59,355 nt of DNA from contig JBMFRC010000020.1 in NCBI GenBank assembly GCA_049968235.1, forward strand, positions 1-59,355, read 5' to 3'. The position numbers and the translations under genes are program-made. This document shows positions 11,733-59,355 of this stretch, one piece after another (the stretch's first letter is position 1; each line of letters opens with the position of its first letter). The notes beneath the pieces were generated by a model that saw only the letters and a program-made list of their open reading frames with translations, was not told the origin of the DNA and searched no databases. This DNA is from Candidatus Hydrogenedens sp. Its GTDB lineage: Bacteria; Hydrogenedentota; Hydrogenedentia; Hydrogenedentales; Hydrogenedentaceae.

Positions 11733-12663
11733 TTTTCATTACTCCATTAAAGCAAACTTGATTCCTGCCCTTTTCCTTTGCAAGGTACAATGCTTCATCC
11801 ACATATTTTATTACATTATCAATATTTGTTTTTTGGTTTACTATTATACCACCAATGCTTACTGTAATTTTAATTTTCCCTGTAGCTGTAACCATTTCTG
11901 TACTCTGCACGATTGTATTAAGTCGTTCTAATGTAATTTGGGCGTAAGATTCTGTTATATTAGGGATAATAATTAAAAATTCTTCTCCGCCCAACCTACC
12001 TATCTGGTCATACGGTCTTAACTGAGAGCGGATGATATGAACAAAACCTTTAAGCACATCATCCCCTGTCTGATGTCCATAAGTATCATTAATCTTCTTA
12101 AAATGGTCTAAATCACACATTGCCACACAAAATTGTTCTTCTGTCCTTTGTGAACGTTCCAATTCTTCATTCAATCGTTCTAAAATTCCTCGCCTATTCA
12201 GGCAACCTGTCAGGGGGTCATGAATGGCTTCATACTCAAGGGCTTTTTGGGTTTCCATTAAGTCTTTTTGTAAAGTAGCAGTGCGTAATCCTACACGAAT
12301 TCGTGCCCAGAGTTCATCTGCGTCAAAAGGTTTGCGAATATAATCATCCGCACCTGCTTCTAAGCCCTCGATAACTTCTTCTTTTTCTGTTTTTGTAGTT
12401 AACATAATGATATATGTAATGACTTCCTCTTTGTTTGCGCGTACAGTACGAACAACATCAATACCATCCATTTCGGGCATAACCCAATCCAGAATAGCCA
12501 GTAATGGTGGTGATTTATCCTGTAAAATTTCAAGGGCACTTTTGCCATCACTGACCTCAATGGGTTCATACCCCCATTTTCTTATTGCAGAAACCAGCAT
12601 AAGACGAGATACAAAATCGTCTTCTGCGACTAAAATTTTAATTTTCTCCTTTTTTTCATCCAT
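11725..12663 (-). CDS. response regulator with GGDEF diguanylate cyclase domain
   Basis: Receiver (ILVAEDD...DWVMPEMDG) plus GGDEF domain with RLGGEEF active-site motif. Overlaps neighbours on both sides by 8 nt (operon). Confidence 0.85.
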   Translation of the reverse strand: MDEKKEKIKILVAEDDFVSRLMLVSAIRKWGYEPIEVSDGKSALEILQDKSPPLLAILDWVMPEMDGIDVVRTVRANKEEVITYIIMLTTKTEKEEVIEGLEAGADDYIRKPFDADELWARIRVGLRTATLQKDLMETQKALEYEAIHDPLTGCLNRRGILERLNEELERSQRTEEQFCVAMCDLDHFKKINDTYGHQTGDDVLKGFVHIIRSQLRPYDQIGRLGGEEFLIIIPNITESYAQITLERLNTIVQSTEMVTATGKIKITVSIGGIIVNQKTNIDNVIKYVDEALYLAKEKGRNQVCFNGVMKNG

Positions 12664-15600: not shown

Positions 15601-17215
15601 CAATAAATGTGGTTTTTTTATCATCAATGATATTTACAAATAATAAATCCCCCGGACGAGTAACAATGCCATATAAAGTTTGTAAAATGAATATGGGATA
15701 AAACAGACTATTAGAATCATAAATGTTTAAATTTTTTAATATGCCGTCATAACCTATCTGTGAATCGTCGAAATAAATTTCGTTAATTTCATCCTTATTC
15801 AAAATGTGGAAAAAGTTTATATATAAAGATTTTGTAGAGAAAGTAAATTCTTTCTCATGTAATAAATAATTTAGAAACTTCTTTAAGTTTAATGTAATAC
15901 CAATAAACCCCTGAATTTGATTGTTTTTGAAGACAGGTTGAAATGCTAATATGTCAAATTGAGATTTATTAGGGAATAGAGGTATTCCACTTAGCGATAC
16001 TGAGGAGGGGCTTAATGTTTTTATCGCTTGTTGGACTATAAGTTTAAATTTTTCATTGGAGTTAATATCATAACCTTTTATTTGTATATCTTGATTCCAT
16101 GTAGAATACAGAACAGGTAAATAAAAATCCCTTTCCTGGGCGGGTTTTATATTCTCATGGCTGTCGAACTCCCATATCTGAAACTCGGGTGAATATGTCT
16201 CTCTAATTTTATTTAAAAAATGTTCTTTATCTTCATTACGAACCCATGGTATCCAGAGGTAAGATGCATAAAAAGAAATTTCTCTATCAAATGACTGGGT
16301 AAAATTATCAAATTCTTGGGGAGTTACTTCTGTACTATTTTCAAAAAAAGAAACAAAGGAGGGAATAATTGTATCACGGATATCTTCCAATTTTTCTCTC
16401 AAGATATTTACTTTTGCTGAAGAAACTTCGTTTAAAGTAACCCAATGTTGTCGCTGGTCTCTTTCTCCAACAAACCATGTCGCTCCAAGTGTAAAAATAA
16501 AAGCCAATAAAAAAGTTAAAATTGTTTCTGCATGTCGTAAACCATCGTATTTCCCTTTTTGTGTGTTTCTTCTACTAAAACCAATTCCTGAAACTAAAAT
16601 AACAATAACTGCTGATATAGTAAATATGATTGTTGGATACGCCTTACCCCAGATAATTTTTTTCCAATCACTTGCGTCAATATCCATCCCTAACACGGCT
16701 ATAGGTTTATCTCTCAATGGACTTTTAATAGGAACTAATCCGCTAATCCATACTCCCCATTCATCGGGAAGAGGTCCTTCCGTAAAAGGAACTCCTGTAT
16801 CAAAACAGCCAATCAACGCTTCTGAAGCATCCTCATATAGTTCTCCGGGTCGTGCTGGGGGGGTTTCTTCTGTGTCCTCTTGTGTATCCATATAAAAGAA
16901 TATCTTTTTATCTTCTGTCCTTCCCATTAAATAAAGATATTTGCAACGCGGAATTATTGCACGAACAGAACGAAGTCTTGTTTGCAAAGACTGATAAATA
17001 GGGTTTTCTAAATCTTCACCTGAAGCATGGAATTTTTCGATGTTATTAGGGTCAATACCTTCTGCTATATTGATAACCTGAGTTAAAAGTAATTGCCGAA
17101 GCCATTTATCATAAAATTTGTATGTGTGATAACTCCATATACTACCGCATAAAAGTATCAGGAATATAGAAAGCAGAATGTGCCATCGTAATAACCATTT
17201 TAAGTAATTACTCAT
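12656..17215 (-). CDS. large hybrid sensor histidine kinase (periplasmic sensor, PAS x3, HisKA-HATPase, two REC, C-terminal Hpt)
   Basis: TM helices flank a ~500-aa N-terminal extracytoplasmic region. H-box SHEIRTPMN. HATPase GTGLGLAI/GKGSTF. Two receivers (DMQMPEMDG and DVQMPEMDG). Hpt motif HSIKGASANIGG. Confidence 0.8.
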   Translation of the reverse strand: MSNYLKWLLRWHILLSIFLILLCGSIWSYHTYKFYDKWLRQLLLTQVINIAEGIDPNNIEKFHASGEDLENPIYQSLQTRLRSVRAIIPRCKYLYLMGRTEDKKIFFYMDTQEDTEETPPARPGELYEDASEALIGCFDTGVPFTEGPLPDEWGVWISGLVPIKSPLRDKPIAVLGMDIDASDWKKIIWGKAYPTIIFTISAVIVILVSGIGFSRRNTQKGKYDGLRHAETILTFLLAFIFTLGATWFVGERDQRQHWVTLNEVSSAKVNILREKLEDIRDTIIPSFVSFFENSTEVTPQEFDNFTQSFDREISFYASYLWIPWVRNEDKEHFLNKIRETYSPEFQIWEFDSHENIKPAQERDFYLPVLYSTWNQDIQIKGYDINSNEKFKLIVQQAIKTLSPSSVSLSGIPLFPNKSQFDILAFQPVFKNNQIQGFIGITLNLKKFLNYLLHEKEFTFSTKSLYINFFHILNKDEINEIYFDDSQIGYDGILKNLNIYDSNSLFYPIFILQTLYGIVTRPGDLLFVNIIDDKKTTFIVGLVVTLALTLSVSILSNYNRTLRNLIQQRTSELHRSRELIKSTLYSIGDAVISVDRSGVIIDINRSAQVLTGWTDKEGIGKHIDEIIQLKNYTTGEPIENPIHLTLRSGERVDIGNNTVLISKDSKEYNIADSCTPIYDTENQMLGAVFVFRDVTEEYQQKQKLLESELFQRTLMESVQAGIALIDNDTHIIEYINDAGTKMFGAEKDKIIGKVCHKFLCPTEIGQCPIHNPDEEIVNQEKILLTANGESKPVLKSVKVINIGGKNMILDCFIDISKEKEIENELRETNHQLLTAIQKAQELAVKAELANMAKSEFLANMSHEIRTPMNAIIGMTSLLLDTELEPQQRHYAEVIQSSGESLLSLINDILDFSKIEARKLDLEEIDFDLISMLEDFSNVMAVKANEKRLELVIATEDNVPNLLRGDPGRIRQILTNLVGNAIKFTHEGEVNIHVSCIEETNEDVMLKFIVKDTGIGIPEDKIKLLFNKFTQVDASMTRKYGGTGLGLAISKNLAEMMHGSIGVKSEYGKGSTFWFTIRVKKQKDARPQFFVFPENLQNIRILIVDDNNSNREILRMRLKSWGARPEEAPDAFTALNILKRARKENDPIKLCIIDMQMPEMDGETLGKIISSDENLSDTILVMLTSIGMRGDVKKYKDIGFSAYLTKPIRHTELFDILTTLLSLSKSQTVDGRRPFFTPSIITRHSIRDIQKQRKTFKAKVLLAEDNLVNQQVAVGMLNKLGITPDIANNGREALELLEKNEYDLMFMDVQMPEMDGIQATKKIRSRFSNVKNHDITIIAMTAHALEEDKGKCLEAGMNDYIAKPIVLEKLVELLEKWLPSKIQTEKETLTIAKKPTVDTGYTPPSTVDTSIVFDYKSFMKRIMDDNELAKTILDSFLEDIPKQIELLKNYLSEKRIRDAERQAHSIKGASANIGGEQLREVAFRIEKLCKEGNITEVPELIQQMEDKFKELTEKIREIFYG

Positions 17216-17218
17216 TTT

Positions 17219-18349
17219 TTATTCTCCAAAACGAATTACACCCTTCATTCCAAATAAAAACCGCAATATTTTATATTTTCTTATTAAAAAGTGGTAAATA
17301 ACAAGCGTAACAGAAAATGATAATACGGATAATACAAAAAATACTAATCCTACATTTAAATTCCATGAAATTATATAATATGCAAGGAGAACTATAATTG
17401 TTTGATGTAAAATGTAAAAAGGATAGGACATTTCACTTGCATAAGGGAGTATTCGCATCGGGGAATTAAGGTATTTCTCTCCATATCCTAATATAAATAA
17501 CAGCCAGAACCATACATTGAACCGGCGTAGAATATAAAAAAGGACATCTGAAGATGAGTATTTCTCAAAAGTCAAAGAAAATTTAATCAAAGAGAGGTAA
17601 ATTATCATTGTAGTCATACCTGCAAGAAATAACAAAAATCGGTTCTTTCGTATAAACTGTTCTATTTTGGGATTAGATACAATAAAAAAACCTATAAAGA
17701 AATAGGTATAATAATAAAAGGGATTTTTTGAGACAGGTGAGGGCAATTGCTCCACCAATCCAATTATTACGGGATAAAGAAATAAAAAAATATAATTTGC
17801 AATATAGTTCTCTATTTTTTGTGAATGTTTTTTGAGATTTAAGAATAATGGGACTGAAATAATACTATAAAAATAAAGATAAAGAATAAACCATAGATGT
17901 GCAGGAGTAAAAAAACCGGTATATCCCGTAAAGTCACCCTGTATATGGAAGAAATACTGTCTAATAAAGTTCAATAGGCTACCATCAGGGTGGGTTTTCA
18001 AATAAGCAAAATAAGGTTGAGGGGGAACAATAAATAGCATGGAAAATACAAAAGGAACAAGTAAACGTTTTGTCCTTTCTGCGATGTATTGATTCCATGT
18101 CCTTTTTTGTAGTGCGTAGAAGGTGGATATACCGGCTATTATAAATAGAAGTGGCATGTGCCACGGGGAAAGGAAAAATACGAAATAGTCCAGCAGGAAG
18201 TGGGAAGAGGAACTTTTTACATAAAAAGATTCGTATGAGAAGAATACCATTGCACAGTGAAATGGAATAAGAAGCAAAACGGCGAAAATTCGTAGATATT
18301 CAATATCATATCGTCGTTTTTCAAATACCGGTGATTTAAAGTTTGACAT
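17219..18349 (-). CDS. acyltransferase family 3 (OpgC/OafA-like) membrane protein
   Basis: Polytopic membrane protein. The N-terminal IEYLRIFAVLLLIPFHC resembles the acyltransferase_3 motif. Confidence 0.65.
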   Translation of the reverse strand: MSNFKSPVFEKRRYDIEYLRIFAVLLLIPFHCAMVFFSYESFYVKSSSSHFLLDYFVFFLSPWHMPLLFIIAGISTFYALQKRTWNQYIAERTKRLLVPFVFSMLFIVPPQPYFAYLKTHPDGSLLNFIRQYFFHIQGDFTGYTGFFTPAHLWFILYLYFYSIISVPLFLNLKKHSQKIENYIANYIFLFLYPVIIGLVEQLPSPVSKNPFYYYTYFFIGFFIVSNPKIEQFIRKNRFLLFLAGMTTMIIYLSLIKFSLTFEKYSSSDVLFYILRRFNVWFWLLFILGYGEKYLNSPMRILPYASEMSYPFYILHQTIIVLLAYYIISWNLNVGLVFFVLSVLSFSVTLVIYHFLIRKYKILRFLFGMKGVIRFGE

Positions 18350-18361
18350 AAATGGGATATA

Positions 18362-21300
18362 TTAATGTTTATGCTTTTTATCCAGTATGTTTCTAACTGT
18401 TCTTAATAAATCCTGTCTCCCATAAGGTTTGTTTATAAGATTAAGGTTTTTATCTAAAACAAAGTTGGTGTGTATGGAATTTTCGGAATAACCTGTTGAA
18501 AAAAGGACGGGCAAATCCGGTCGTATTGCTTTTATCTTTTCATAAACCTCTTTTCCATCCATTATAGGCATAATAACATCTAAGATAACAAGGTCAATAG
18601 CATTGATATTTTCTAGGAAAAGTTTAACACATTCTTCACCATCTTTTGCAGATAATACGCGATAACCTGCCTGTTCTAAAATACGCATTGCTACTGAGCG
18701 AACAGATAATTCATCTTCTGCAATTAATATGGTTTCATTTCCCATGAGTTGTTCATTCGCTCCTTTTTCAGTAGTATTTTCTTGTTGTATTTGCTCCTGA
18801 TGGGTAGCAGGCAGATAAATCTTGAAAGTAGTTCCCTTTCCCACCTCTGAATATACATGAATGATGCCGTTATGTTGTTGAACAAGTCCATAAACAGTTG
18901 ATAATCCCAATCCCGTTCCTTTTCCTGTTTCTTTTGTAGTAAAGAACGGGTCAAAACAATGTTCCAATGTATATTTGTCCATACCTATGCCCGTATCTGT
19001 AATACTAATAACCACAAAATCACCTGAAACTGTCCATGAAAGACCCTCTATCATTTCTTTTGATATATATGTGGAACTTGTTTCTATCAAGAGTTTCCCA
19101 CCATCGGGCATAGCATCATTTGCATTAACACAGAGGTTAATTAGAATAACTTCAATTGCATTTTTATCAGCGGAAATCATCGGTATGGAAGTATCCGGTA
19201 TAAAAGTTAATTCTATATTTTCACGGAGAAGTCTCTGTAACATTTTATATATATCATGGACCAGTTCGTTAACATTAATAATTTCTTTTTTCAGTACTTG
19301 CTTCCGGGCAAAGGCTAATAGTTGACGAATTAATGAAGATGCTTTTTGGTTGGCTTTGATTATTTCCTGTATATAAGGGACAATGGGGGAATCCGTATGA
19401 AGTTCTCGTTCTGCCAATTCCGCATAACCATTAATTACCATCAAATGATTATTTAAATCATGGGCAATACCCCCTGCTAATTGTCCAATACTTTCCATCT
19501 TCTGGGATTGTTTAAGGTCATTCTGGAGTTTCAATTCGTAGGTAATATCCCTGAAAATCATTACGATATTCATTAATTCTTTCTGCTCGTTGAATAATGG
19601 GGATATGGAATATTCTATGGTGGATATGTTCCCATCATTTTTAGTCCATTCCAGTTGTCCTCTTATCATTTTCCCACCTTTAAGAGATTTTATCTTTTCT
19701 TGATATTCTTCCTCTTTCATACCATTTTCAAGAAAAGAAGATAAATGTTTACCGGATAATTCCACATTCCCTTTCCCAGTGATTATCTTAACCGCAGGAT
19801 TCGTATAAATAATTACTTCATCTTTATCGGTAATTAGAATGCCCTCTTCCGCAGTTTCTACGGTTTGGATAAGTAAATCCCGCTGTTGTTCGGATTTTAA
19901 TTTATCTCGGTTCATAAGTGTTAAAGCCAATTGGTCTGCAACCTGACAGGCAAATGTAATTTCGTCATTATCCCAGATATGTTTTTCTCCTGTATATTCA
20001 AAACAAATCACTCCTTTATTTTGTTCACCTATTCGAATGCCCACATCTAACATGGATTTAATATTTAGAGGAATGAGATAGTTAGATGTATATCCTTTTG
20101 TTCGTGGGTCTTCCAGAGCGTCATACGCATCCACATATTTCGCTCTTTTTAATTCCTGAAACTCGTTAAAAAACTCTTCTTCATGTAGAACATAACCTGC
20201 TGAGTGGAGTCCAGAAAATAGGTCATAATGGTCTATACATTCTAATTGAGTTCGTTTATCATTAAATAGCCATACATTAACACGAGGAACTTTTAATTTT
20301 TTCCCAATTTCCTCTGTTATATACTTTGCCAAACCCTCAAAATTTCCCCTTGCTACATCTGGATGGGTTACTATACAGGTAAGAATATCGTTTTCAATGA
20401 TTAACCGCTCATTTTTTTCTTTCTGCTTTTCTTCTTCATTTTTTTGCTGAGTTATATCCCATAAATATCCCTGTAAATATAAAAGATTACCATCATCCCA
20501 TACTCCTGTCCCGATTTCTTCTATCCAGACCCAATGCCCATCACGATGCTGGATGCGGTAGAATAAATGATAAGGAAGTCTCTGCCTCAATTTATCATCA
20601 ACTTCATTAAAAATATAGTCCCTATCTTCTGGATGAAAAATATCCGAAAAATTTATTTTTGTAGATATAAACTCGTCTTTTGTATAACCTGTAAGATTAT
20701 AAACAGCATCCGTTAAATAGAGCATGGTGTAGAATTCGTCATTTTTACAGATATAAACCGTTCCGGGAAAATTCTCCGTTAAAAGTTTATACCTTCTTTC
20801 ACTTTCTTCCAGACTTCTCCTTGCTATCTTCGAATGTTTTAATGAATATTCCAGCATTTTGTTTGTTTTCATGATTTTATAAGCATAGATAATGGATGAA
20901 ATGGCAACAATAAGCAATGTCCAGAAAACAAGGAAAGAAATAATAAAATAACGTTGCCTTTTAATAAACTCAACAGTTGTTTCTTTTTCTACCTCTTCAA
21001 ATGGAGGTAGTCGTAGTTTCCGCACAAGTTCCTCAACAGAAGTGTAACTTAAATGAGGTATCCAACCGGCAGAGTCAATACATTGTGCTTCAGGACTTCC
21101 AGGAGGGATTTTTAAAAGAGCAAGAAGCATTTTCTTTTTAACTTCTTCCGGAATAGTAGAATGTGCAATACAACATGCTTCCGGGAATACATCCGTACTA
21201 TAAGGGTATGCAATTACTTTACTTCTTTTATTGTTTATAATTTTTACGGATTCTTCCTTTATTTTTCCTTCTTGAATAAATTTCCACAAATAAAAAGCAC

Positions 21301-21910
21301 TTATACAGCCTACATCCGCATTACCTGTAAGAACTGTTTGTAATACATCTTCATGATTTCCAGCAAAAACGATAGCGTTAAAATCTCTATCAGGTTCTAT
21401 TCCTTGTTTTTTAAATTCATGATATGGGAGAATCCATCCTGCAAAAAAATCCTTCCCGGGAATACAAACCTTCTTCCCGATAACATCTCGTATTGTATTT
21501 ATATCTTCACGGTCAGACCCACAAAAAATAGTCCCTGCTTGATATTCTGTTATCCCTTCAGGTCCTTTACGAACTATCGTGGCTATGAAACTATAAGCAT
21601 TGATATGTCCTGCAAGTATGGATGTGTAAGGATTACAAATAGCAAAATCAAGTTCGCCCCAGGATAATGACCTTATTAGGGTATCATCGGAAAGACATAA
21701 AAATTGGAATTGATAATCGGGAAACTCATTTTTTAAATATTGAATAAAAGGCTGGATGGATTGTGGGTTTGCTATTTCATTTAAAAATTTTTGATAGCCA
21801 ATGGTTATCTTTTTATCTGTATTTTGAGTATCTGCGTTTAAATTATTAGTAAGTGTAATAATATAGAAAAAGATTAGAAAGACTATATAAATCGTTTTTA
21901 TTTTCTTCAT
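18362..21910 (-). CDS. hybrid sensor histidine kinase with N-terminal PhnD/SsuA-like periplasmic substrate-binding domain, PAS-GAF-PAS, HisKA-HATPase, REC
   Basis: Signal peptide. ~300-aa periplasmic binding-protein-like domain. TM helix. H-box AHDLNNHL. G-boxes GLGLSTV/GKGTTF. C-terminal receiver (LIAEDE...DVIMPIMDG). Confidence 0.8.
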   Translation of the reverse strand: MKKIKTIYIVFLIFFYIITLTNNLNADTQNTDKKITIGYQKFLNEIANPQSIQPFIQYLKNEFPDYQFQFLCLSDDTLIRSLSWGELDFAICNPYTSILAGHINAYSFIATIVRKGPEGITEYQAGTIFCGSDREDINTIRDVIGKKVCIPGKDFFAGWILPYHEFKKQGIEPDRDFNAIVFAGNHEDVLQTVLTGNADVGCISAFYLWKFIQEGKIKEESVKIINNKRSKVIAYPYSTDVFPEACCIAHSTIPEEVKKKMLLALLKIPPGSPEAQCIDSAGWIPHLSYTSVEELVRKLRLPPFEEVEKETTVEFIKRQRYFIISFLVFWTLLIVAISSIIYAYKIMKTNKMLEYSLKHSKIARRSLEESERRYKLLTENFPGTVYICKNDEFYTMLYLTDAVYNLTGYTKDEFISTKINFSDIFHPEDRDYIFNEVDDKLRQRLPYHLFYRIQHRDGHWVWIEEIGTGVWDDGNLLYLQGYLWDITQQKNEEEKQKEKNERLIIENDILTCIVTHPDVARGNFEGLAKYITEEIGKKLKVPRVNVWLFNDKRTQLECIDHYDLFSGLHSAGYVLHEEEFFNEFQELKRAKYVDAYDALEDPRTKGYTSNYLIPLNIKSMLDVGIRIGEQNKGVICFEYTGEKHIWDNDEITFACQVADQLALTLMNRDKLKSEQQRDLLIQTVETAEEGILITDKDEVIIYTNPAVKIITGKGNVELSGKHLSSFLENGMKEEEYQEKIKSLKGGKMIRGQLEWTKNDGNISTIEYSISPLFNEQKELMNIVMIFRDITYELKLQNDLKQSQKMESIGQLAGGIAHDLNNHLMVINGYAELAERELHTDSPIVPYIQEIIKANQKASSLIRQLLAFARKQVLKKEIINVNELVHDIYKMLQRLLRENIELTFIPDTSIPMISADKNAIEVILINLCVNANDAMPDGGKLLIETSSTYISKEMIEGLSWTVSGDFVVISITDTGIGMDKYTLEHCFDPFFTTKETGKGTGLGLSTVYGLVQQHNGIIHVYSEVGKGTTFKIYLPATHQEQIQQENTTEKGANEQLMGNETILIAEDELSVRSVAMRILEQAGYRVLSAKDGEECVKLFLENINAIDLVILDVIMPIMDGKEVYEKIKAIRPDLPVLFSTGYSENSIHTNFVLDKNLNLINKPYGRQDLLRTVRNILDKKHKH

Positions 21911-52754: not shown

Positions 52755-54216
52755 AGTTTATACCTCCTTTGTTATGTAAATATTCAATGGCTCTGGAAAG
52801 TCGTTCCAGTGTTTTTTCTTTCCCTAACAATTCCATAAGTTCAAAGAAGCCCGGTCCAACCGATTTTCCCGTAAGTGCAAGGCGTGTAGGATTTATCAAT
52901 GCACCTAATTTTATATTAAATTCAGCACAAACTTCATCAAAAACCTGCTTTAACGGGTCATGTTCCCACACAGATACACAGGACAGTTTAGTCTGAACCT
53001 TTTTTAGATAAGTAATTACCGTTTCTGGCGTTTTCCATAATTTTGCTTCCGCTTCCGATTCATAAGTATCAAAATCCTTGAAAAAGAAGTCAGAAAGAAA
53101 CACAATTCGATTTAAAGTTGGCAATTTTTCCTGACAAATTTGAGCCAATTTTGTCAACCATTCCTTACTTTTTGTAGATGTGTTAAACCCATGCTTTTCG
53201 AGGATAGGTATAAGGCGGTCACGAAGGTCTTCAACCGATAAATTGCGAATATGCAAACCATTAAGCCATTCTAATTTTTTCCGGTCAAATCGTGCAGCAG
53301 ACTTGTTAATTCGTTCGATTGAAAAATGTTCAATAAGTTCGGGCAGAGTAAAAAACTCGCGATTTTCCTCCTCCGATGTCCAGCCTAAAAGTGCTACATA
53401 GTTAACAATAGCCTCCGGCACATACCCATCTTCCCGCCAATCTAACACATTCGCACCATGCAATCTCTTACTAAACTTTCGACCTTGCTCATCATGAACC
53501 AGCGGATGATGTGCATAATGGGGGAGCGGAGCATCCAATGCCTTGAAAAGCATAATGTGGCGGGGGGTATTTGTTAAATGGTCATCACCGCGAATGACAT
53601 GCGTTATTTTCATCGTAATATCATCTACAACTACAGCCAGATGAAAAACCGGATCACCATTGGCACGAAGAATGATAAAATCATCATACTGACTGTTCTT
53701 AAAAACAACCGTCCCTTGAATAAGGTCATTTACCACCGTCTCACCTTCCGGCACACGAAAACGAATTACATAAGGGGCATCCCCTTTTTCACGAACCTGT
53801 TCCGGGGTTAAATTCCTGCAAAAACCCGGATAATACAGATTCCCTGTTTCATCTTTATAAGATTCCAAACTTTCCTTTGAACAAAAACACTTATAGGCTT
53901 TCCCCCGTTCCAATAATTGATAAGCCATTTTCCTATAAAGTTCTTTCCGTTGACTTTGACGGTAAGGAGCATAATCCCCTTTCTCAGGCACATCACCAAA
54001 CGGGGGTCCCTCATCCCAATCAATCCCTAACCACTTAAACCCCTCACACATCCCGAAAACATACTGTTCATCTGTTCGCTCCGCATCAGTGTCTTCCAAT
54101 CTTAATATAAATGTTCCCTTATTCTTACGAGCAAAAAGCCAATTATACAATGCAGTCTTAGCAGTACCTATATGCAAAAAGCCTGAAGGCGAAGGTGCTA
54201 TTCGTGTGCGAACCAT
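52747..54216 (-). CDS. gltX: glutamate--tRNA ligase
   Basis: HIGH motif PSPSGFLHIGTAKTA. KMSKS variant KFSKR. Confidence 0.9.
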   Translation of the reverse strand: MVRTRIAPSPSGFLHIGTAKTALYNWLFARKNKGTFILRLEDTDAERTDEQYVFGMCEGFKWLGIDWDEGPPFGDVPEKGDYAPYRQSQRKELYRKMAYQLLERGKAYKCFCSKESLESYKDETGNLYYPGFCRNLTPEQVREKGDAPYVIRFRVPEGETVVNDLIQGTVVFKNSQYDDFIILRANGDPVFHLAVVVDDITMKITHVIRGDDHLTNTPRHIMLFKALDAPLPHYAHHPLVHDEQGRKFSKRLHGANVLDWREDGYVPEAIVNYVALLGWTSEEENREFFTLPELIEHFSIERINKSAARFDRKKLEWLNGLHIRNLSVEDLRDRLIPILEKHGFNTSTKSKEWLTKLAQICQEKLPTLNRIVFLSDFFFKDFDTYESEAEAKLWKTPETVITYLKKVQTKLSCVSVWEHDPLKQVFDEVCAEFNIKLGALINPTRLALTGKSVGPGFFELMELLGKEKTLERLSRAIEYLHNKGGINCE

Positions 54217-54418
54217 AATGTTCCTTACAACAATTCATAATTTAATTTTATGGAATAAAGAGATTTTATAATACCACGAATATCCACATATTTTCACATA
54301 TCAAAAAAACACCCAAAAAAAATCATAACAAACAATCTCTCACCACCTCGCAATCTATACTTAAACAACTATATTATTTATAATCATTAGTCTTATTAGA
54401 TAGTGAATAAAGCAATTT

Positions 54419-54450
54419 AAAAAAAATAAATGCCCCCACTGGGAGGGCAT
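54419..54450 (-). terminator. intrinsic terminator of the tracrRNA
   Basis: Minus-strand RNA AUGCCCUC-CCAGU-GGGGGCAU: 8-bp stem (one G-U), 5-nt loop, followed by UUUAUUUUUUUU. Confidence 0.6.
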
Positions 54451-54492
54451 TGGCTACCTTTTACGGATACCCTTACGCAGCAGAACTCCTTA

Positions 54493-54528
54493 CTATGTTA
54501 AGAGGAGAAATGCTCGCTCTGCTATAAT
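54493..54528. repeat. solitary degenerate CRISPR repeat copy, inverted relative to the array (encodes the tracrRNA anti-repeat)
   Basis: CTATGTTAAGAGGAGAAATGCTCGCTCTGCTATAAT versus the reverse complement of the array repeat, GCTATGTTTTGAGGGAAGTGCTCGCTCTGCTATAAT. The 3' 18 nt and 5' 7 nt are identical; the middle is diverged. Confidence 0.75.
54520..54528 (+). promoter_or_regulatory. putative cas9 promoter: extended -10 TGCTATAAT contributed by the degenerate repeat
   Basis: Perfect TGnTATAAT on the + strand, 116 nt upstream of the cas9 ATG. No recognisable -35. Confidence 0.35.
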
Positions 54529-54536
54529 CTTTTTTA

Positions 54537-54565
54537 ATTATAGCAAAAAAAAATTGAAATGTCAA
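54537..54565 (-). promoter_or_regulatory. tracrRNA promoter (consensus sigma70 with extended -10)
   Basis: On the minus strand: TTGACA (54565..54560), exactly 17 nt spacer, TGCTATAAT (54545..54537). The predicted TSS is about 54530, at the first nucleotides of the anti-repeat. Confidence 0.6.
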
Positions 54566-54643
54566 ATTATATTTGGTAAATTATTTAATATAATTATTGA
54601 CAAATTTTTATTTTTAACCAAACACAAAAAAAGGAGAAAGAGA

Positions 54644-57600
54644 ATGAACAATACAGATAACTTTGATAACTTTAGTCCTTATACATTAGGTCTTGATTTA
54701 GGTTCCAATTCTATCGGTTGGGCACTTATTAAATTAGATGAGAACGATAATCCCTGTGGAATTGAGAAGGTGGGTGTTCGCGTATTTGAGGCGGGTATGG
54801 AAGGTCAGTATGAAAGTGGAAAAGAAGAATCGCGAAATAAAAAAAGAAGGGATGCCCGGTTAGCTCGTCGTCAATATGAACGCCGTGCTCGAAGGTATCG
54901 TAAGTTAGCAAACTTACTTCAGAAGATAGGATTACTTCCGGAGGGCGATATGAATAATAGTTTAGAAAGGCAAGCCATTCTGGATACATTAGATAAGGAA
55001 TTACGTTCCAGATATATTAATCCCAATCTTCCTGAAGAAGAAAAAAATCGACTGAACCAAATATTTATCTATTACCTCCGTTCATTGGCAGTCGAGCAGA
55101 AGTTAGAACCGTTTGCATTAGGACGTATCCTATATCATTTATGTCAGAGACGCGGATTCTTAAGTAATCGTCGTGGACAAAAACAAGATGATGAAGAACG
55201 AGGAAAAGTAAAGGAAGGAATCGCCGAAATTCGACAGGAAATGAGCCGATTAGGTGCAGAAACACTCGGTAGATATTTTGCTAAAATTGACCCTCTTGAA
55301 AAACGAATACGCGGGAGATGGACTGCCCGTGATATGTATGAACAAGAATTCTATACTATCTGGGAACACCAGGCAAAATATTATCCAGAACTACTCAACG
55401 ATACAAATAAAAAACAAATCTTCCGTGCAATATTTTTTCAACGCCCCTTAAAATCGCAAAAAGATAAAATTGGGTTTTGCCAGTTTGAATGTATCAAACT
55501 AGGTGCCCAACGCAACCGTCGCCGGGCTCCATGGTTTATACTCAAAGCACAAAGGTTCAGATTGCTACAAAAAGTGAATGATTTGTTAATTGTAGAAGAT
55601 AAGTTTACAAAAAGACCTCTCACAGATGATGAACGAAAAATAATTATAGACCATCTTGAAAAATATGGAGATGAAACCTTTGCACAATTGCGCAAACTGT
55701 TGGGTTTGAAAAAGACAGTAAAATTCAATCTGGAAGAAGGTGGAGAAAAGAAAATTCGTGGAAATAGAACCGCAGGTGCTATTCGTGAAGTTATCGGTGA
55801 ACTATGGGACAACATGCCGGATGCGGAGCGGGATAAACTTGTTGAAGATATATATTCCATTGTCAGTAATAAAGCATTAAAGAAACGATTAATAAACCAT
55901 TGGAAATTCACAGAAGAACAAGCAGAAAAATTATCGGAAATAAGCATTGAAGATGGTTACTGCAATCTATCCCGTCAGGCAATTGATAAATTCCTGCCTG
56001 GACTGGAATCGGGAAAACACTATTCTACATTAGTCAAAGAAATTTATGGGATAGATGACATTAATATCATAGTTAACCTGTTACCCCCCTTAGAATCCGC
56101 CCCTATTGGCGAAATTCGGAATCCAACCGTAACACGAACATTGGCGGAAATGAGAAAAATCGTTAACGAACTTGTAAAACGATATGGCAAGCCAAAGTTT
56201 ATTCATATTGAAACTGCACGAGATTTAAGGAATACAAAAAAAGAACGAGAGAAGATTTGGAAAAATAACAGATATTTGGAAGAAGTTCGTGAAAAAATAA
56301 AAAAAGACCTGATAAGTAAAGGTATCTCCAATCCAACAAATGATGATGTTGAACGATATATGTTAGCAGATGAGTGTGGTTGGGTTTGTCCTTATACAGG
56401 TCGTTCTATTAGTTTTAATGCCTTATTTGTCGAATCTCAATTCGATATAGAACATATAATTCCGCTCAGCCGCTGTCTCGATAATTCATTCAAGAATAAA
56501 ACATTGTGTTATCACGAGGAAAATAGGAATAGAAAGCATAATCAAACGCCGTTTGAAGCCTATGGCTCAAATGAAACACAATGGAATGAAATTTTAAGAA
56601 GGGTCGAAAATTTTAGTTCGATATACGCAGTAGAAAAATTAAAACGATTTAAAATGCACGGGGAAGATTTAGACGAATTCATCGATAAGTTTTCTGCATC
56701 TCAATTAAATGACACGCGCTACGCTTCGAGAGAAGCAAGAATATACTGTGCTTTGCTATACGGAAAAGAATATCGAAAACATGTATTCACCGTATCTGGT
56801 TCAACAACAGCAGTCATACGGCGTATGTGGGATTTGAATAAGATATTAGGTAGTGCGGAAAAAAATAGAGAAGACCATCGACAGCATGCTATCGACGCTA
56901 TCGTAATTGCCCTGACTTCACCTGCAATGATAAAGAGCATTTCCCAACAGGCAGAAAAAATCCCGAAAGATACCCCCAAACGATACCGCTGGTGGAGACA
57001 TATTAAACCGCCATGGGATACTATCTTTAACGAAGCCCATGAAAAAGTGCTGAATATTATTGTCTCACACCGTCCCGAACGAAAAGTGAGCGGTAGACTT
57101 CATGAGGAAACAAATTACAGTCCACCCAAACCCGGTGATAAAGAAGGAGAAACCGTTGTTCATGTAAGAAAATCTTTAAGTAATATTTCTAAGGGTGAGA
57201 TAGAAGAAATTGTTGACCCGGTTGTTAGGGAAACAGTAAAAAAGAAATTAGAAGAATTGGGGGGAGACCCGAAAAAAGCCTTTGCTGACCCCGCGAATTA
57301 TCCATTAATGCCCAATAAGAAAGGACTTCATATACCTATACGCCATGTGCGTATTCGTAAAAAAATGAATGTTTTCCCCATAGGCAAAAATGAACGAATT
57401 CGTTATGTCGCCACAGATGAAAATCACCATGTGGAAATTTTTGAGACAAAAGATAAAAAAGGAAAAACCATCTGGGATGCTAATGTGGTCAGCATGTTCG
57501 AAGCAATGCAACGAAAGAAAGAGGGCAAAGAAATTATCCAGCGAAAACTTATCCGCGATGGGAAAGTTGTCGAAGATGCAAAATTCCTCTTTAGCCTCTG

Positions 57601-57844
57601 CAAAGGAGATGTGGTTTACATGAAAGAATTGTATGATGAAAACAAATATGAATACTTTAAATTAATAAAAATGGATATAAACTGTGTATTTATGTTTCTT
57701 CCAATTTACATGGCAAAAATACCACAAAAAAATGGTAAGAAGGATTTTACAGGATTAACAAGAAAACCAAGTTCTCTTTTAACTTCTGATGCAAAGAAAT
57801 GTTCTATCAATGTTTTAGGAGAAGTGCAAATAGCACATGACTGA
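54644..57844 (+). CDS. cas9: Cas9, type II-C (1066 aa)
   Basis: RuvC-I LGLDLGSNSIGWAL (Asp18). Arg-rich bridge helix RRDARLARRQYERRARRYRKL. RuvC-II IHIETARD (Glu523). HNH FDIEHIIP...N (His604, codon 56453..56455). RuvC-III HHAIDAIVIA (His748/Asp751). The ATG at 54644 lies 7 nt after AAGGAG. The ORF-track start at 54554 adds a spurious 30-aa extension. Confidence 0.9.
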   Translation: MNNTDNFDNFSPYTLGLDLGSNSIGWALIKLDENDNPCGIEKVGVRVFEAGMEGQYESGKEESRNKKRRDARLARRQYERRARRYRKLANLLQKIGLLPEGDMNNSLERQAILDTLDKELRSRYINPNLPEEEKNRLNQIFIYYLRSLAVEQKLEPFALGRILYHLCQRRGFLSNRRGQKQDDEERGKVKEGIAEIRQEMSRLGAETLGRYFAKIDPLEKRIRGRWTARDMYEQEFYTIWEHQAKYYPELLNDTNKKQIFRAIFFQRPLKSQKDKIGFCQFECIKLGAQRNRRRAPWFILKAQRFRLLQKVNDLLIVEDKFTKRPLTDDERKIIIDHLEKYGDETFAQLRKLLGLKKTVKFNLEEGGEKKIRGNRTAGAIREVIGELWDNMPDAERDKLVEDIYSIVSNKALKKRLINHWKFTEEQAEKLSEISIEDGYCNLSRQAIDKFLPGLESGKHYSTLVKEIYGIDDINIIVNLLPPLESAPIGEIRNPTVTRTLAEMRKIVNELVKRYGKPKFIHIETARDLRNTKKEREKIWKNNRYLEEVREKIKKDLISKGISNPTNDDVERYMLADECGWVCPYTGRSISFNALFVESQFDIEHIIPLSRCLDNSFKNKTLCYHEENRNRKHNQTPFEAYGSNETQWNEILRRVENFSSIYAVEKLKRFKMHGEDLDEFIDKFSASQLNDTRYASREARIYCALLYGKEYRKHVFTVSGSTTAVIRRMWDLNKILGSAEKNREDHRQHAIDAIVIALTSPAMIKSISQQAEKIPKDTPKRYRWWRHIKPPWDTIFNEAHEKVLNIIVSHRPERKVSGRLHEETNYSPPKPGDKEGETVVHVRKSLSNISKGEIEEIVDPVVRETVKKKLEELGGDPKKAFADPANYPLMPNKKGLHIPIRHVRIRKKMNVFPIGKNERIRYVATDENHHVEIFETKDKKGKTIWDANVVSMFEAMQRKKEGKEIIQRKLIRDGKVVEDAKFLFSLCKGDVVYMKELYDENKYEYFKLIKMDINCVFMFLPIYMAKIPQKNGKKDFTGLTRKPSSLLTSDAKKCSINVLGEVQIAHD

Positions 57845-58730
57845 ACATATTATAGACCTGTCCGAAGAAGGTGGACGGCTGAATATCGATTTAGAACGAT
57901 TAGCAATAACACAAGGGGAGAAGGAATTTTTTATTCCCTTAGCAGAAGTATCTGTGGTAATTGTTTCACATCCGGCTGTAACTTTAACACAACCCGTATT
58001 GTCCGGCTTAATGAAGTATGGAGCCGTATTTATTACCTGTGATGAAAAACGAATGCCCATCGGTATGATGTATCCATTAGTGGGACATCATCTACAAATG
58101 GAAAAATTAAAATATCAGATAGAAGCCTCTTTACCTATACGCAAACGAGCATGGCAACAGATTATTAAATCAAAAATTCAAGCACAGGGAAACTTATTAT
58201 TAGAATTACACGGAGACGATAAAGGTCTAATTCCATTAGCAGAACGCGTGCAGTCCGGTGACCCGGATAATGTGGAAGGACTGGCAAGCAGGAAGTATTG
58301 GAATTTTTTATTCCCAGCCGAATTTGAGTTCCATCGAAATCCAGAAGCAGGGGGAATTAATGCCCTGCTGAATTATGGATATGCTATTCTACGCGGGATT
58401 ACAGCAAGAGCCATCGTTAGTGCAGGGCTAAATCCAAGTATCGGCATTCATCATCACAACCGATATAATCCGTTTTGCCTCGCTGATGATTTAATGGAAC
58501 CCTATCGACCCATTGTAGATTTTGCTGTGGTGAAGTTTATGCGGGGAAAAGATGCCTTTGTTGAACTAAATAAAGAAGCAAAACAATTTCTGATACAAAA
58601 TTTGATGAAAAAATATAAAATGAATGATGAAGAACGAAACTTGTTCGATATTACTTTTAGAACCGCTGTATCCCTTGCTCAGATGTTTGAGGGAAAAAGA
58701 AAAACATTAATACTCCCTGAAATTGTATAA
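57837..58730 (+). CDS. cas1: Cas1 (type II)
   Basis: Motifs CDEKRMP, LNYGYAIL, DLMEPYRP are shared with type II Cas1. An 8-nt overlap with the cas9 stop indicates translational coupling. Confidence 0.9.
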   Translation: MTEHIIDLSEEGGRLNIDLERLAITQGEKEFFIPLAEVSVVIVSHPAVTLTQPVLSGLMKYGAVFITCDEKRMPIGMMYPLVGHHLQMEKLKYQIEASLPIRKRAWQQIIKSKIQAQGNLLLELHGDDKGLIPLAERVQSGDPDNVEGLASRKYWNFLFPAEFEFHRNPEAGGINALLNYGYAILRGITARAIVSAGLNPSIGIHHHNRYNPFCLADDLMEPYRPIVDFAVVKFMRGKDAFVELNKEAKQFLIQNLMKKYKMNDEERNLFDITFRTAVSLAQMFEGKRKTLILPEIV

Positions 58731-58849
58731 ATATAATCCATGGCTAAAAAAGCCACGAACTTGCAAATTAAGAACAAATTAAACCATGAAAAGCCATGAG
58801 CAAGAAAAAAGATAAAAATAAAAAACCTCAAATATCAGGATATAAATCT

Positions 58850-59155
58850 ATGTGGATGATCGCTATGTTCGATTTACCTGTGGAAACAAATGAAGACCGA
58901 AAACATGCTACGCAGTTTCGAAATTTGCTATTAAGAGAAGGATACTCCATGTTGCAGTTTTCCGTTTATGGCAGATATTTCCCAAGCGAAGAAGCAAGTG
59001 AACCCTATAAAAAAAGAATTCGTCAAAGTATTCCACCACGAGGAGAAGTCCGACTCCTCTATATTACTGATAAACAGTTCGAGAAAATGGAAATCTTCGT
59101 GTCAAAAAAGAAACGAAAAGCAGAAGAACCTACCCCACAATTACTACTTTTTTAA
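58850..59155 (+). CDS. cas2: Cas2
   Basis: MWMIAMFDLPV...RNLLLREGYSMLQFSVY matches the Cas2 core (MLVLVTYDV-type start). The ATG at 58850 lies after AGGA. The ORF-track start at 58796 adds a Lys-rich 18 aa without an SD. Confidence 0.8.
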   Translation: MWMIAMFDLPVETNEDRKHATQFRNLLLREGYSMLQFSVYGRYFPSEEASEPYKKRIRQSIPPRGEVRLLYITDKQFEKMEIFVSKKKRKAEEPTPQLLLF

Positions 59156-59175
59156 TAAAAAATCCTCCCTTTTTA

Positions 59176-59190
59176 ACTATGTTTGAGGGA
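59176..59190. repeat. partial degenerate inverted repeat fragment between cas2 and the array
   Basis: CTATGTTTGAGGGAT matches the first 16 nt of the reverse-complement repeat (CTATGTTTTGAGGGAA) with one T deletion and one substitution. Confidence 0.4.
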
Positions 59191-59204
59191 TTTATAAATT
59201 TTAG

Positions 59205-59355
59205 ATTATAGCAGAGCGAGCACTTCCCTCAAAACATAGCTTATCCATTAGCAACTCTCTAACGGTTACCATTATAGCAGAGCGAGCACTTCCCTCAAAA
59301 CATAGCAGACTCGAATTGACATTGACACCACCGACAATTATAGCAGAGCGAGCAC
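59205..59355. CRISPR. CRISPR array, 36-bp repeat ATTATAGCAGAGCGAGCACTTCCCTCAAAACATAGC, 30-bp spacers; truncated by the window end; probably transcribed on the minus strand
   Basis: Identical repeats at 59205..59240 and 59271..59306, and a partial one at 59337..59355. Spacers at 59241..59270 and 59307..59336. The minus-strand form of each repeat ends in TGCTATAAT. Confidence 0.9.

What the first reader, a model, noticed from the sequence alone, without database searches (positions are those of the whole stretch)
54419..59355. Complete compact type II-C CRISPR-Cas9 locus with a reconstructable guide RNA, in a likely PVC-lineage genome
All parts of a functional type II-C system are visible in order: tracrRNA (minus strand), cas9 (1066 aa, all RuvC and HNH catalytic residues intact), cas1, cas2 and the array. 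No csn2 or cas4 is present, which defines subtype II-C. The repeat does not match any Cas9 system I recognise, and the genomic context (DUF1559 pilin-like protein, V-type ATPase, Tat isomerase) points to an under-sampled lineage. This looks like an uncharacterised Cas9 ortholog whose crRNA:tracrRNA duplex can be designed directly from this window.
Basis: partly seen in the sequence, partly recalled or inferred. Interest (0 to 1): 0.85.

Follow-up and report, generated by a model that had tools for sequence, protein, structure and literature searches.

The report
Ordinary type II-C CRISPR-Cas9 locus
This is a real, intact, but conventional type II-C CRISPR-Cas9 immune locus (tracrRNA, cas9, cas1, cas2, repeat array) in the chromosome of an uncultured Candidatus Hydrogenedens bacterium, built like the Neisseria and Campylobacter systems; its Cas9 is an untested relative of known enzymes, not a new kind of system.

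Summary
The window carries a minus-strand tracrRNA (about 54530 to 54420), cas9 (54644-57844, 1066 aa), cas1, cas2 and a 36-nt repeat / 30-nt spacer array from 59205. The window end cuts the array after 2.3 repeats.

HMMs call all three proteins type II. No csn2 or cas4 lies between cas2 and the array, so the subtype is II-C. The closest solved structure is Nme1Cas9, and it is a distant match (E 7e-80).

The crRNAs must be read from the minus strand, towards cas2. Each repeat carries a sigma-70-like promoter (TTGAGG-16-TGcTATAAT). All 46 distinct repeats of the wider clade end in TAnAnT. This is the known II-C arrangement of repeat-borne promoters, with new spacers added at the cas2-proximal end.

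The lineage guess is wrong. GltX is 92% identical to, and syntenic with, Candidatus Hydrogenedens terephthalaticus (Hydrogenedentota, FCB group), not a PVC organism.

The clade has more than 580 members among species-representative genomes. Close relatives (83% full length, 99% partial) are already in public databases, annotated as Cas9.

Verdict: new member of a known kind, modest interest. The PAM is unknown. The PAM-interacting segment is a swapped cassette among close relatives.

The parts
54537..54565 (-). tracrRNA promoter, TTGACA-17 nt-TGcTATAAT (12 of 12 matches, extended -10)
   Evidence: Promoter scan. TTGACA-type promoters sit at the same place in related loci.
54420..54530 (-). tracrRNA, about 110 nt. 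Anti-repeat 54528..54493, AGUAAG plus nexus hairpin and middle hairpin 54492..54452, terminator hairpin 54451..54429, U-run to 54419.
   Evidence: Duplex with the repeat, dG -56. Terminator. Same position and strand in 20 of 20 related loci examined. Cognate repeat:anti-repeat pairing is the best in 13 of 14 loci. Same tail layout in 38 of 44 loci. No Rfam match.
54554..54582 (+). Weak promoter-like site for cas9, back to back with the tracrRNA promoter
   Evidence: 9 of 12 matches. Consensus match only; function is inferred.
54644..57844 (+). cas9, 1066 aa, type II-C. RuvC residues D18/E523/H748/D751; HNH residues E603-H604...N627. The PAM-interacting segment, about residues 996-1050, is hypervariable.
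57837..58730 (+). cas1 (type II / NMENI class), 297 aa, overlapping the cas9 stop by 8 nt
   Evidence: An identical protein is found in NCBI assembly GCA_049971155.1.
58796..59155 (+). cas2, 119 aa from the first ATG (101 aa if it starts at 58850)
   Evidence: The 101-aa call is in L083.
59160..59193 (.). Hairpin between cas2 and the first repeat (AAATCCTCCC...GAGGGATTT). It is flanked by an A-run and a T-rich stretch. Its loop and 3' arm (59177-59190, CTATGTTTGAGGGA) are an inverted copy of the first 15 nt of the crRNA-sense repeat.
   Evidence: A hairpin abuts the cas2-proximal repeat in most loci of the clade (36 of 54 with z below -2). Its role is inferred: bidirectional terminator, insulator or leader signal.
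59205..59355 (-). CRISPR array, cut by the window end. Repeats at 59205-59240, 59271-59306 and 59337-59355 (partial); spacers at 59241-59270 and 59307-59336. The crRNA-sense repeat is GCTATGTTTTGAGGGAAGTGCTCGCTCTGCTATAAT.
   Evidence: The identical repeat forms arrays of 33-36 units in L084 and L085.
59205..59232 (-). Repeat-internal promoter TTGAGG-16-TGcTATAAT in repeat 1, pointing into the leader and cas2
   Evidence: 10 of 12 matches, with TG.
59271..59298 (-). Repeat-internal promoter TTGAGG-16-TGcTATAAT in repeat 2. The predicted start is near nt 7 of spacer 59270..59241, which would give a 24-nt guide.
   Evidence: TAnAnT ends all 46 distinct repeats of the clade.

Best explanation
This is a chromosomal type II-C CRISPR-Cas9 adaptive immunity locus of a Candidatus Hydrogenedens species. 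It works like the Neisseria meningitidis and Campylobacter jejuni systems.

1. The tracrRNA is transcribed divergently from cas9, from its own strong promoter, and ends at an intrinsic terminator.
2. The array is transcribed on the minus strand, towards cas2. Short transcripts start from a sigma-70 promoter inside each repeat, about 7 nt into the downstream spacer. Each gives a 24-nt guide followed by the next repeat.
3. The 5' part of that repeat pairs with the tracrRNA anti-repeat, and Cas9 binds the duplex.
4. Cas9 cuts PAM-flanked DNA with its RuvC and HNH sites.
5. Cas1-Cas2 add new spacers at the cas2-proximal repeat, which is the transcriptionally downstream end.

Shown here: the genes, the catalytic residues, the strand and boundary signals of the tracrRNA, repeat:anti-repeat complementarity and its co-variation across loci, conservation of the promoter motif, and spacer turnover at the cas2-proximal end.

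Inferred, not shown: actual transcription starts, independence from RNase III, nuclease activity, and the PAM.
For: Proteins:
- Cas9 matches TIGR01865 at 746 bits; Cas1 matches cas1_NMENI; Cas2 matches TIGR01573.
- PADLOC gives Cas9, Cas1_II and Cas2_II.
- The nearest structures are all II-C enzymes, with Nme1Cas9 first.

tracrRNA:
- Perfect promoter and terminator on the minus strand.
- Full-length duplex with the repeat.
- Anti-repeat at the same place and strand in 20 of 20 relatives.
- Cognate duplexes average -54 kcal/mol against -31 for non-cognate pairs.
- A shared tail layout whose stem sequences differ between loci.

Repeat promoters:
- TTGAGG-16-TGcTATAAT in both full repeats.
- T31, A32, A34 and T36 are invariant in 46 of 46 distinct repeats, and TTG sits at positions 9-11 in 35 of 46.
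- Repeat-borne promoters and acquisition at the last repeat are described for II-C systems (PMC12080349).

Polarity of acquisition:
- L084 and L085 share their cas-distal spacers and then diverge.
- The cas-distal terminal repeat in L087 is mutated in its first 7 nt while keeping the promoter part.
- The sister assembly L083 has 100% identical Cas1 and Cas2 but different cas2-proximal spacers.

Host and location:
- Synteny with gltX, and GltX 92% identical to Ca. H. terephthalaticus.
- Housekeeping genes surround the locus.
Against: - No expression data exist. The promoter calls are consensus matches, and the region as a whole has no excess of promoter-like sites (12 found against 16.7 expected).
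- The conserved TAnAnT lies at the leader-proximal repeat end, so it could be kept for Cas1-Cas2 recognition rather than for transcription.
- The window's tracrRNA tail is an outlier in its genus. It has a G.G mismatch in the nexus stem.
- Only two complete spacers are visible, and no protospacer was found for any of 7 spacers tested. Targets and PAM are therefore unknown.
Confidence: 0.9

Rival explanations
1. The repeat-internal promoter motifs do not fire. crRNAs come from one long minus-strand precursor that starts beyond the far end of the array and is cut by RNase III on the tracrRNA duplex, as in type II-A. The TAnAnT motif would be conserved for Cas1-Cas2 or Cas9 recognition.
For: The promoter scan finds no overall excess of sites. 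The motif sits at the repeat end next to the integration site. The full 36-nt repeat:anti-repeat duplex would be a good RNase III substrate.
Against: Both hexamers, the 16-nt spacing and the TG extension occur together in the window repeat. The -35-like TTG is also conserved in 35 of 46 repeats. The cas-distal terminal repeat in L087 has lost its tracr-pairing 5' part but keeps the promoter part intact. Repeat promoters are the described II-C arrangement (PMC12080349). Both routes can coexist.
Confidence: 0.15
2. The locus is intact in sequence but functionally decaying in this strain. The tracrRNA tail has been overwritten by a divergent patch that Cas9 no longer binds well.
For: 20 of the 24 differences from the sister assembly L081 (GltX 100% identical) over about 3 kb fall in 54419-54495, the tracrRNA tail; the same 20 recur in L082. 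The window's nexus stem carries a G.G mismatch and its tail folds more weakly (-20.5 against -23 to -27 kcal/mol).
Against: The three-hairpin layout is kept, and the terminator changes are compensatory. All cas reading frames and catalytic residues are intact. The window pairs perfectly at the repeat 5' end, whereas the sister strains have a mismatch there. Spacer content differs between near-identical strains, which implies recent acquisition.
Confidence: 0.07
3. The array is read on the + strand from a leader next to cas2, and the complementary RNA upstream of cas9 is a + strand transcript.
For: The + strand orientation also gives a stable duplex in silico (-48.7 kcal/mol). The array follows cas2 in the same direction as the operon.
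Against: A + strand tracrRNA would end right after the anti-repeat, with no nexus or hairpin tail. It would have no promoter, whereas the minus strand has a perfect promoter, the tail and a terminator. This minus-strand layout is conserved in all 20 relatives examined.
Confidence: 0.02

Closest known systems
Neisseria meningitidis type II-C CRISPR-Cas9 (Nme1Cas9; PDB 6KC8, 6JDQ)
   Same: - Gene order: tracrRNA, cas9, cas1, cas2, array.
- Cas9 of about 1070-1080 aa.
- 36-nt repeats with 30-nt spacers.
- The repeat ends in an extended -10 box (TGcTATAAT here; TGCTACAAT in Nme, from my memory of Zhang et al. 2013, which I could not open).
- The array is read towards cas2.
- A 24-nt guide is predicted.
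- Cas1 matches the NMENI model.
- It is the best solved-structure match.
- Close relatives differ in a swapped PAM-interacting segment, as reported for Nme1/2/3Cas9 (Edraki et al. 2019, as cited in PMC13431127).
   Different: - Only a distant sequence relative: 272 bits, aligned in three segments, and 23.7 bits over the C-terminal third.
- Different repeat and tracrRNA sequences.
- The host is an uncultured anaerobe of Hydrogenedentota.
- The locus is chromosomal and syntenic within the genus, whereas the Nme locus is reported to lie on a mobile element (PMC13431127).
- The PAM is unknown.
Campylobacter jejuni type II-C CRISPR-Cas9
   Same: Repeat-borne promoters, acquisition at the transcriptionally last repeat, and a mutated 'extra' first repeat (PMC12080349). 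The same pattern is seen in arrays that carry this window's repeat.
   Different: CjeCas9 is shorter and a much weaker match (5x2g, E 1e-27). The Cje terminator described in that paper lies at the far, upstream end of the array. The hairpin noted here lies at the cas2-proximal end.
Uncharacterised environmental II-C Cas9 clade (Hydrogenedentota, Planctomycetota, Acidobacteriota, Chloroflexota, Zixibacteria and other MAGs)
   Same: 40-83% identical Cas9 proteins. Identical gene order, 66-nt array period, the repeat family GCUGUGGnUUG...GGUACACU, the minus-strand tracrRNA position and tail layout, and a hairpin abutting the first repeat.
   Different: Within its genus, the window differs in its PAM-interacting cassette (shared only with P0003 and P0005) and in its tracrRNA tail. 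I found no experimentally characterised member of this clade. A full-text search for Hydrogenedent* plus Cas9 returned only Cas12b and unrelated papers.

Membership tests
Type II CRISPR-Cas (Cas9 effector) | A single large effector with a split RuvC domain and an inserted HNH domain, with the catalytic residues present | tested here: met
   TIGR01865 at 746 bits against a cutoff of 100, over the full length. Pfam HNH_4, RuvC_III and Cas9_a. D18, E523, H604, N627, H748 and D751 are invariant in 20 relatives and align to the Nme1Cas9 motifs.
Type II CRISPR-Cas (Cas9 effector) | A tracrRNA with an anti-repeat complementary to the CRISPR repeat, followed by a structured 3' tail | tested here: met
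   Anti-repeat at 54493-54528, duplex dG -56. Promoter and terminator on the minus strand. Conserved position, co-variation with the cognate repeat and tail layout. Expression was not tested. The Rfam tracrRNA model does not match, which is expected for a non-Streptococcus tracrRNA.
Subtype II-C | The adaptation module is cas1 and cas2 only, with no csn2 (II-A) and no cas4 (II-B) | tested here: met
   cas2 is followed after 49 nt by the array. Upstream of the tracrRNA lie gltX and a ROK kinase. In a related array with the identical repeat, the DNA beyond the far end encodes an MMPL transporter and a LolA-like protein. The far side of this window's own array is not in the window.
Subtype II-C | Cas9 groups with II-C orthologs rather than with II-A, II-B or II-D | tested here: met
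   The top solved-structure matches are about 1050-1150 aa. The first is Nme1Cas9, recognised from the alignment. I take the following rows to be other II-C enzymes from memory, because the table names them only 'Cas9'. SpCas9-type chains score only about E 1e-11. The Cas9d model scores 144 bits against a cutoff of 375. No formal tree was built.
II-C systems with repeat-borne promoters (Nme/Cje mode) | A sigma-70 promoter inside each repeat, directed into the downstream spacer | tested here: inconclusive
   The sequence motif is present and conserved, but no transcript data are available. See the first rival explanation.
II-C systems with repeat-borne promoters (Nme/Cje mode) | New spacers are added at the transcriptionally last, cas-proximal repeat, and the oldest 'extra' repeat is degenerate in its 5' part | tested here: met
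   Tested on arrays that share this exact repeat. L084 and L085 share distal spacers and diverge proximally. The L087 distal repeat is mutated at nt 1-7. L083 and the window have identical Cas1, Cas2 and leader but different proximal spacers.
   GltX is 92% identical to, and syntenic with, that of Candidatus Hydrogenedens terephthalaticus. The closest Cas9 hits are labelled Ca. Hydrogenedens. NCBI lineage: FCB group, then Candidatus Hydrogenedentota.

The most novel reading that the evidence does not exclude
The most novel reading left open concerns modular diversity around one guide scaffold, not the locus type.

- Within one genus, Cas9 proteins that use the same repeat and nearly the same tracrRNA carry at least four unrelated versions of a roughly 55-residue PAM-interacting cassette. 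The cassettes have been exchanged by recombination.
- The tracrRNA tail is itself a recombination or diversification hotspot between otherwise identical genomes.
- A hairpin of conserved structure but not conserved sequence, abutting the spacer-acquiring repeat across the whole clade, could be an undescribed II-C leader element. It might act as an insulator between the converging cas and crRNA transcripts, or as an integration signal.

If correct, the genus would offer a natural panel of PAM specificities for one sgRNA, and a new handle on II-C spacer acquisition.
Probability: 0.35. Interest if true: 0.5.

Novelty: new member of a known kind. Interest (0 to 1): 0.3.

Why it matters
It adds one more untested compact Cas9 (1066 aa) from an uncultured phylum. 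Its full guide RNA can be read from the sequence, which is useful to anyone mining Cas9 orthologs.

It does not change how type II-C systems are understood. The practical point is a warning. The PAM cannot be borrowed from the nearest relatives, because the PAM-interacting segment is a swapped cassette. This strain's tracrRNA tail is also atypical for its genus.

The side observations could repay a small follow-up study. These are cassette swapping, a tracrRNA-tail hotspot between near-identical genomes, and a conserved hairpin at the acquisition end of the array.

Tried and rejected
- An exact look-up of the Cas9 protein found no contig. GltX and Cas1 look-ups found only short contigs from two NCBI assemblies, so the array could not be extended.
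- Rfam, at a permissive threshold, found nothing in 54000-59355.
- RNAalifold on MAFFT alignments of the tracrRNA recovered only part of the structure, because the stems were misaligned. I used per-sequence folds and repeat:anti-repeat energies instead and did not build a covariance model.
- Protospacer and PAM search:
  - Seven spacers gave no exact match in IMG/VR. Two were from the window, three from sister assemblies and two from L084/L085.
  - Whole arrays L084 and L085 against the GenBank phage collection gave only chance-level hits.
  - No window spacer matched the window or any fetched locus.
- Partial spacer matches to relatives' cas9 or flanks (24 of 30 nt over the full spacer, or 18 of 18 nt as the reported seed) are AT-rich and near chance level, so I did not treat them as targets. 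L002's flank (a methylase and gene fragments) gave no clear sign of a mobile element.
- A scaRNA-like reading of the inverted repeat fragment next to the array was considered. The N. meningitidis scaRNA papers gave no positional parallel that I could use. It remains a speculation.
- Zhang et al. 2013 (Mol Cell) could not be opened. Statements about it rest on memory, or on PMC12080349 and PMC13431127.

Full report

Yes. The ORF list gives three genes in series on the + strand:
- a 1066-aa protein from the ATG at 54644, preceded by AAAGGAGA, ending at 57844;
- a 297-aa protein at 57837-58730;
- a 119-aa protein at 58796-59155.

Pfam, NCBIfam and PADLOC identify them as Cas9, type II Cas1 and Cas2:
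- Cas9 matches TIGR01865 at 746 bits over its full length, plus HNH_4, RuvC_III and Cas9_a.
- Cas1 matches TIGR03639 'cas1_NMENI' and PADLOC Cas1_II.
- Cas2 matches TIGR01573 and PADLOC Cas2_II.

From 59205 there are two identical 36-nt repeats and the first 19 nt of a third, spaced 66 nt apart, at which point the window ends. The same 36-mer forms tandem arrays of 33 and 36 units on metagenome contigs, so this is a real CRISPR repeat.

Upstream of cas9, 54493-54528 is a near-perfect inverted copy of the repeat. The predicted RNA duplex spans the whole repeat at -56 kcal/mol.

**2. Strands and boundaries**

The consensus scan places these features on the minus strand:
- a perfect sigma-70 promoter (TTGACA, 17 nt, TGcTATAAT) at 54565..54537, a few bases upstream of the anti-repeat;
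- a 9-bp terminator hairpin at 54451..54429, followed by TATTTTTTTT ending at 54419.

The tracrRNA therefore runs from about 54530 to about 54420, roughly 110 nt. Its order is anti-repeat, AGUAAG, a short nexus hairpin, a middle hairpin, then the terminator.

Because the anti-repeat has the same sense as the + strand of the array, the crRNAs must be minus-strand transcripts. The functional repeat is GCUAUGUUUUGAGGGAAGUGCUCGCUCUGCUAUAAU.

A + strand alternative would leave a tracrRNA with no promoter and no 3' tail. I reject it.

**3. How the guides are most likely made**

Each full repeat contains, on the minus strand, TTGAGG, 16 nt, TGcTATAAT (10 of 12 matches, with the TG extension).
- The -10 box is the last six bases of the repeat.
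- A start about 7 nt downstream falls at spacer nt 7 and leaves a 24-nt guide.
- Across 46 distinct repeats from related loci, positions 31, 32, 34 and 36 (TAnAnT) are invariant. TTG sits at positions 9-11 in 35 of them.

Feussner et al. 2025 (PMC12080349) state three things for II-C systems in general. Each repeat has its own promoter. Spacers are acquired at the last repeat. The first, 'extra' repeat tends to be mutated in its first 15 nt.

The arrays that share this window's repeat show that pattern:
- L084 and L085 share two spacers on the cas-distal side and then differ.
- The cas-distal terminal repeat of L087 has lost nt 1-7 but keeps the promoter half.
- Assembly L083 has 100% identical Cas1 and Cas2, but both of its cas2-proximal spacers differ from the window's.

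Transcription starts and RNase III independence are still inferences. The conserved motif also lies at the integration end of the repeat, so it could serve Cas1-Cas2 instead. I give that rival 0.15.

**4. Support from relatives**

A protein search found 2963 relatives at E below 1e-20.
- The best full-length hit is 83% identical.
- A 655-aa fragment is 99% identical.
- Both are labelled Candidatus Hydrogenedens sp. and are already annotated as Cas9.

A scan of one genome per species found at least 583 loci that encode a relative. In the 80 loci fetched:
- the order cas9, cas1, cas2, array recurs, with a 66-nt array period;
- an anti-repeat lies 70-150 nt upstream of cas9 on the opposite strand in all 20 loci examined, preceded by TTGACA-type promoters;
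- repeat and anti-repeat co-vary: cognate duplexes average -54 kcal/mol, non-cognate -31, and the cognate partner is the best in 13 of 14 loci;
- the tail layout (AGUAAG, nexus hairpin, nested middle hairpin, terminator with a U-run) recurs in 38 of 44 loci, with many different stem sequences.

**5. Subtype and closest known systems**

No csn2 or cas4 lies between cas2 and the array, or upstream of the tracrRNA. There the neighbours are gltX and a ROK kinase. Beyond the far end of a related array lie transporter genes.

The best solved-structure match is Nme1Cas9 (6kc8/6jdq, E 7e-80), followed by other chains of about 1050-1150 aa. SpCas9-type chains reach only about 1e-11.

The catalytic residues align as follows:
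- D18 in LGLDLG;
- E523 in IHIETAR;
- H604 in DIEHIIP, with N627 23 residues later (the same spacing as H588/N611 in Nme and H840/N863 in Spy, from memory);
- H748 and D751 in QHAIDA.

All are invariant in 20 relatives. The residue before the HNH histidine is Glu, not Asp, throughout the clade.

The locus is a member of subtype II-C. It works like the Nme and Cje systems, but it is only distantly related to them in sequence.

**6. Host**

The PVC guess fails.
- GltX beside the locus is 92% identical to that of Candidatus Hydrogenedens terephthalaticus (L004).
- The gltX-tracrRNA-cas9 arrangement is shared with L004, L086 and L003.
- NCBI places Hydrogenedentota in the FCB group.

The rest of the window holds housekeeping genes, so the locus is chromosomal: hybrid sensor kinases, a V-type ATPase operon and PriA. 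Within the genus, Cas9 (78%) has diverged faster than Cas1 (90%) or GltX (92%).

**7. Things that qualify 'the guide RNA can be designed directly'**

First, the PAM is unknown. Seven spacers had no exact match in IMG/VR, and two whole arrays had no credible match among GenBank phages.

Second, the PAM cannot be inferred from close relatives.
- Residues 996-1050 are only 37% conserved among proteins that are about 80% identical elsewhere.
- They fall into discrete cassettes.
- P0001 is 86% identical over residues 1-990 but 29% identical in this segment. P0003 is 78% and 82%.
- This mirrors the Nme1/2/3Cas9 situation cited in PMC13431127.

Third, this strain's tracrRNA tail is unusual.
- Two sister assemblies with 100% identical GltX (L081, L082) share the same 20 differences from the window inside 54419-54495.
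- For L081 that is 20 of the 24 differences across about 3 kb.
- The three-hairpin layout and the terminator pairing are kept, but the nexus stem has a G.G mismatch.

I rate 'functionally decaying' at 0.07. Even so, an experimenter should test both this tail and the genus-consensus tail.

**8. Verdict**

The finding is correct as an annotation. It is wrong on lineage and over-scored on novelty.
- It is a new, uncharacterised member of a well-known kind.
- It lies in a clade that is large, public and already machine-annotated.
- Interest is about 0.3, mostly as an enzyme-mining lead.

The side observations are listed separately. These are the swapped PAM cassette, the tracrRNA-tail hotspot, and a structurally conserved hairpin abutting the acquisition-side repeat in 36 of 54 loci.

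Noticed in passing
window 59160-59193; also L006-L070, immediately before the first repeat: A hairpin lies 0-11 nt from the cas2-proximal (spacer-acquiring) repeat in most loci of this Cas9 clade (36 of 54 with z below -2 against shuffles). The stems differ in sequence: CCCCCC/GGGGGG in many loci, unrelated stems in L016, L043, L064 and L066. Most lack a U-run on either strand, so they are not canonical terminators. The window's version is flanked by an A-run and a T-rich stretch. Feussner et al. 2025 analysed the other end of II-C arrays. I found no description of this element.
   Followed up: partly
window 59177-59190 (also L001, L002, L003): The loop and 3' arm of that hairpin read CTATGTTTGAGGGA. 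This is an inverted copy of the first 15 nt of the crRNA-sense repeat, with one deletion. It is conserved in the four closest loci but absent from distant ones. It may be a relic of a repeat, or a tracrRNA-pairing decoy or scaRNA-like element. Nothing was tested beyond conservation.
   Followed up: partly
window 57629-57793 (Cas9 residues about 996-1050): The PAM-interacting segment is a swapped cassette. It has at least four unrelated versions among Cas9 proteins that are 74-86% identical elsewhere. The distribution is incongruent with the rest of the protein: P0001 is 86% elsewhere and 29% here; P0003 is 78% and 82%. All of these use the same or nearly the same repeat.
   Followed up: yes
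window 54419-54495: The tracrRNA tail is a divergence hotspot. The same 20 differences from two sister assemblies (L081, L082) fall in these 77 nt. For L081 only 4 other differences occur in about 2.9 kb of flank. The changes are partly compensatory. A second small cluster (55405-55465, Cas9 residues 259-274, conservative changes) lies at the end of contig L082 and may be an assembly-end effect.
   Followed up: partly
window 56450-56455 (Cas9 E603-H604): The HNH motif is D-I-E-H. It has Glu where Nme and Spy Cas9 have the metal-binding Asp (D587/D839, from memory). This is invariant in all 20 aligned clade members.
   Followed up: partly
window 54520-54546: The tracrRNA promoter's -10 box (TGCTATAAT) and the start of the anti-repeat (ATTATAGCA) form a 9-nt inverted repeat around the transcription start. 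The -10 box is identical to the one inside each CRISPR repeat. The -35 boxes of the divergent tracrRNA and putative cas9 promoters abut at 54554-54565.
   Followed up: no
L081:1-45: The 5' end of NCBI contig JBMFLO010000379.1 is a chimeric join. An array repeat end plus a spacer is fused to the tracrRNA anti-repeat through their shared 18 nt. This is an assembly artefact. It also explains why these loci break into short contigs.
   Followed up: yes
L085 spacer 20 vs L086:10982-11011; L084 spacer 26 vs L002:3601-3618; L001 spacer 5 vs L002:818-835: Three spacers from Hydrogenedens-type arrays partly match the cas9 genes or flanks of related loci. L085 spacer 20 matches 24 of 30 nt across the full spacer; for the other two the reported match is an exact 18-nt seed (18 of 18). 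All are AT-rich and near chance expectation. Inter-strain targeting cannot be claimed.
   Followed up: partly
window 8646-21910 (minus strand): A run of very large hybrid sensor kinase / response regulator genes (1028, 1519 and 1182 aa, with PAS, CHASE, GAF and Hpt domains), plus a GGDEF response regulator and an acyltransferase. It is unrelated to the CRISPR locus.
   Followed up: no
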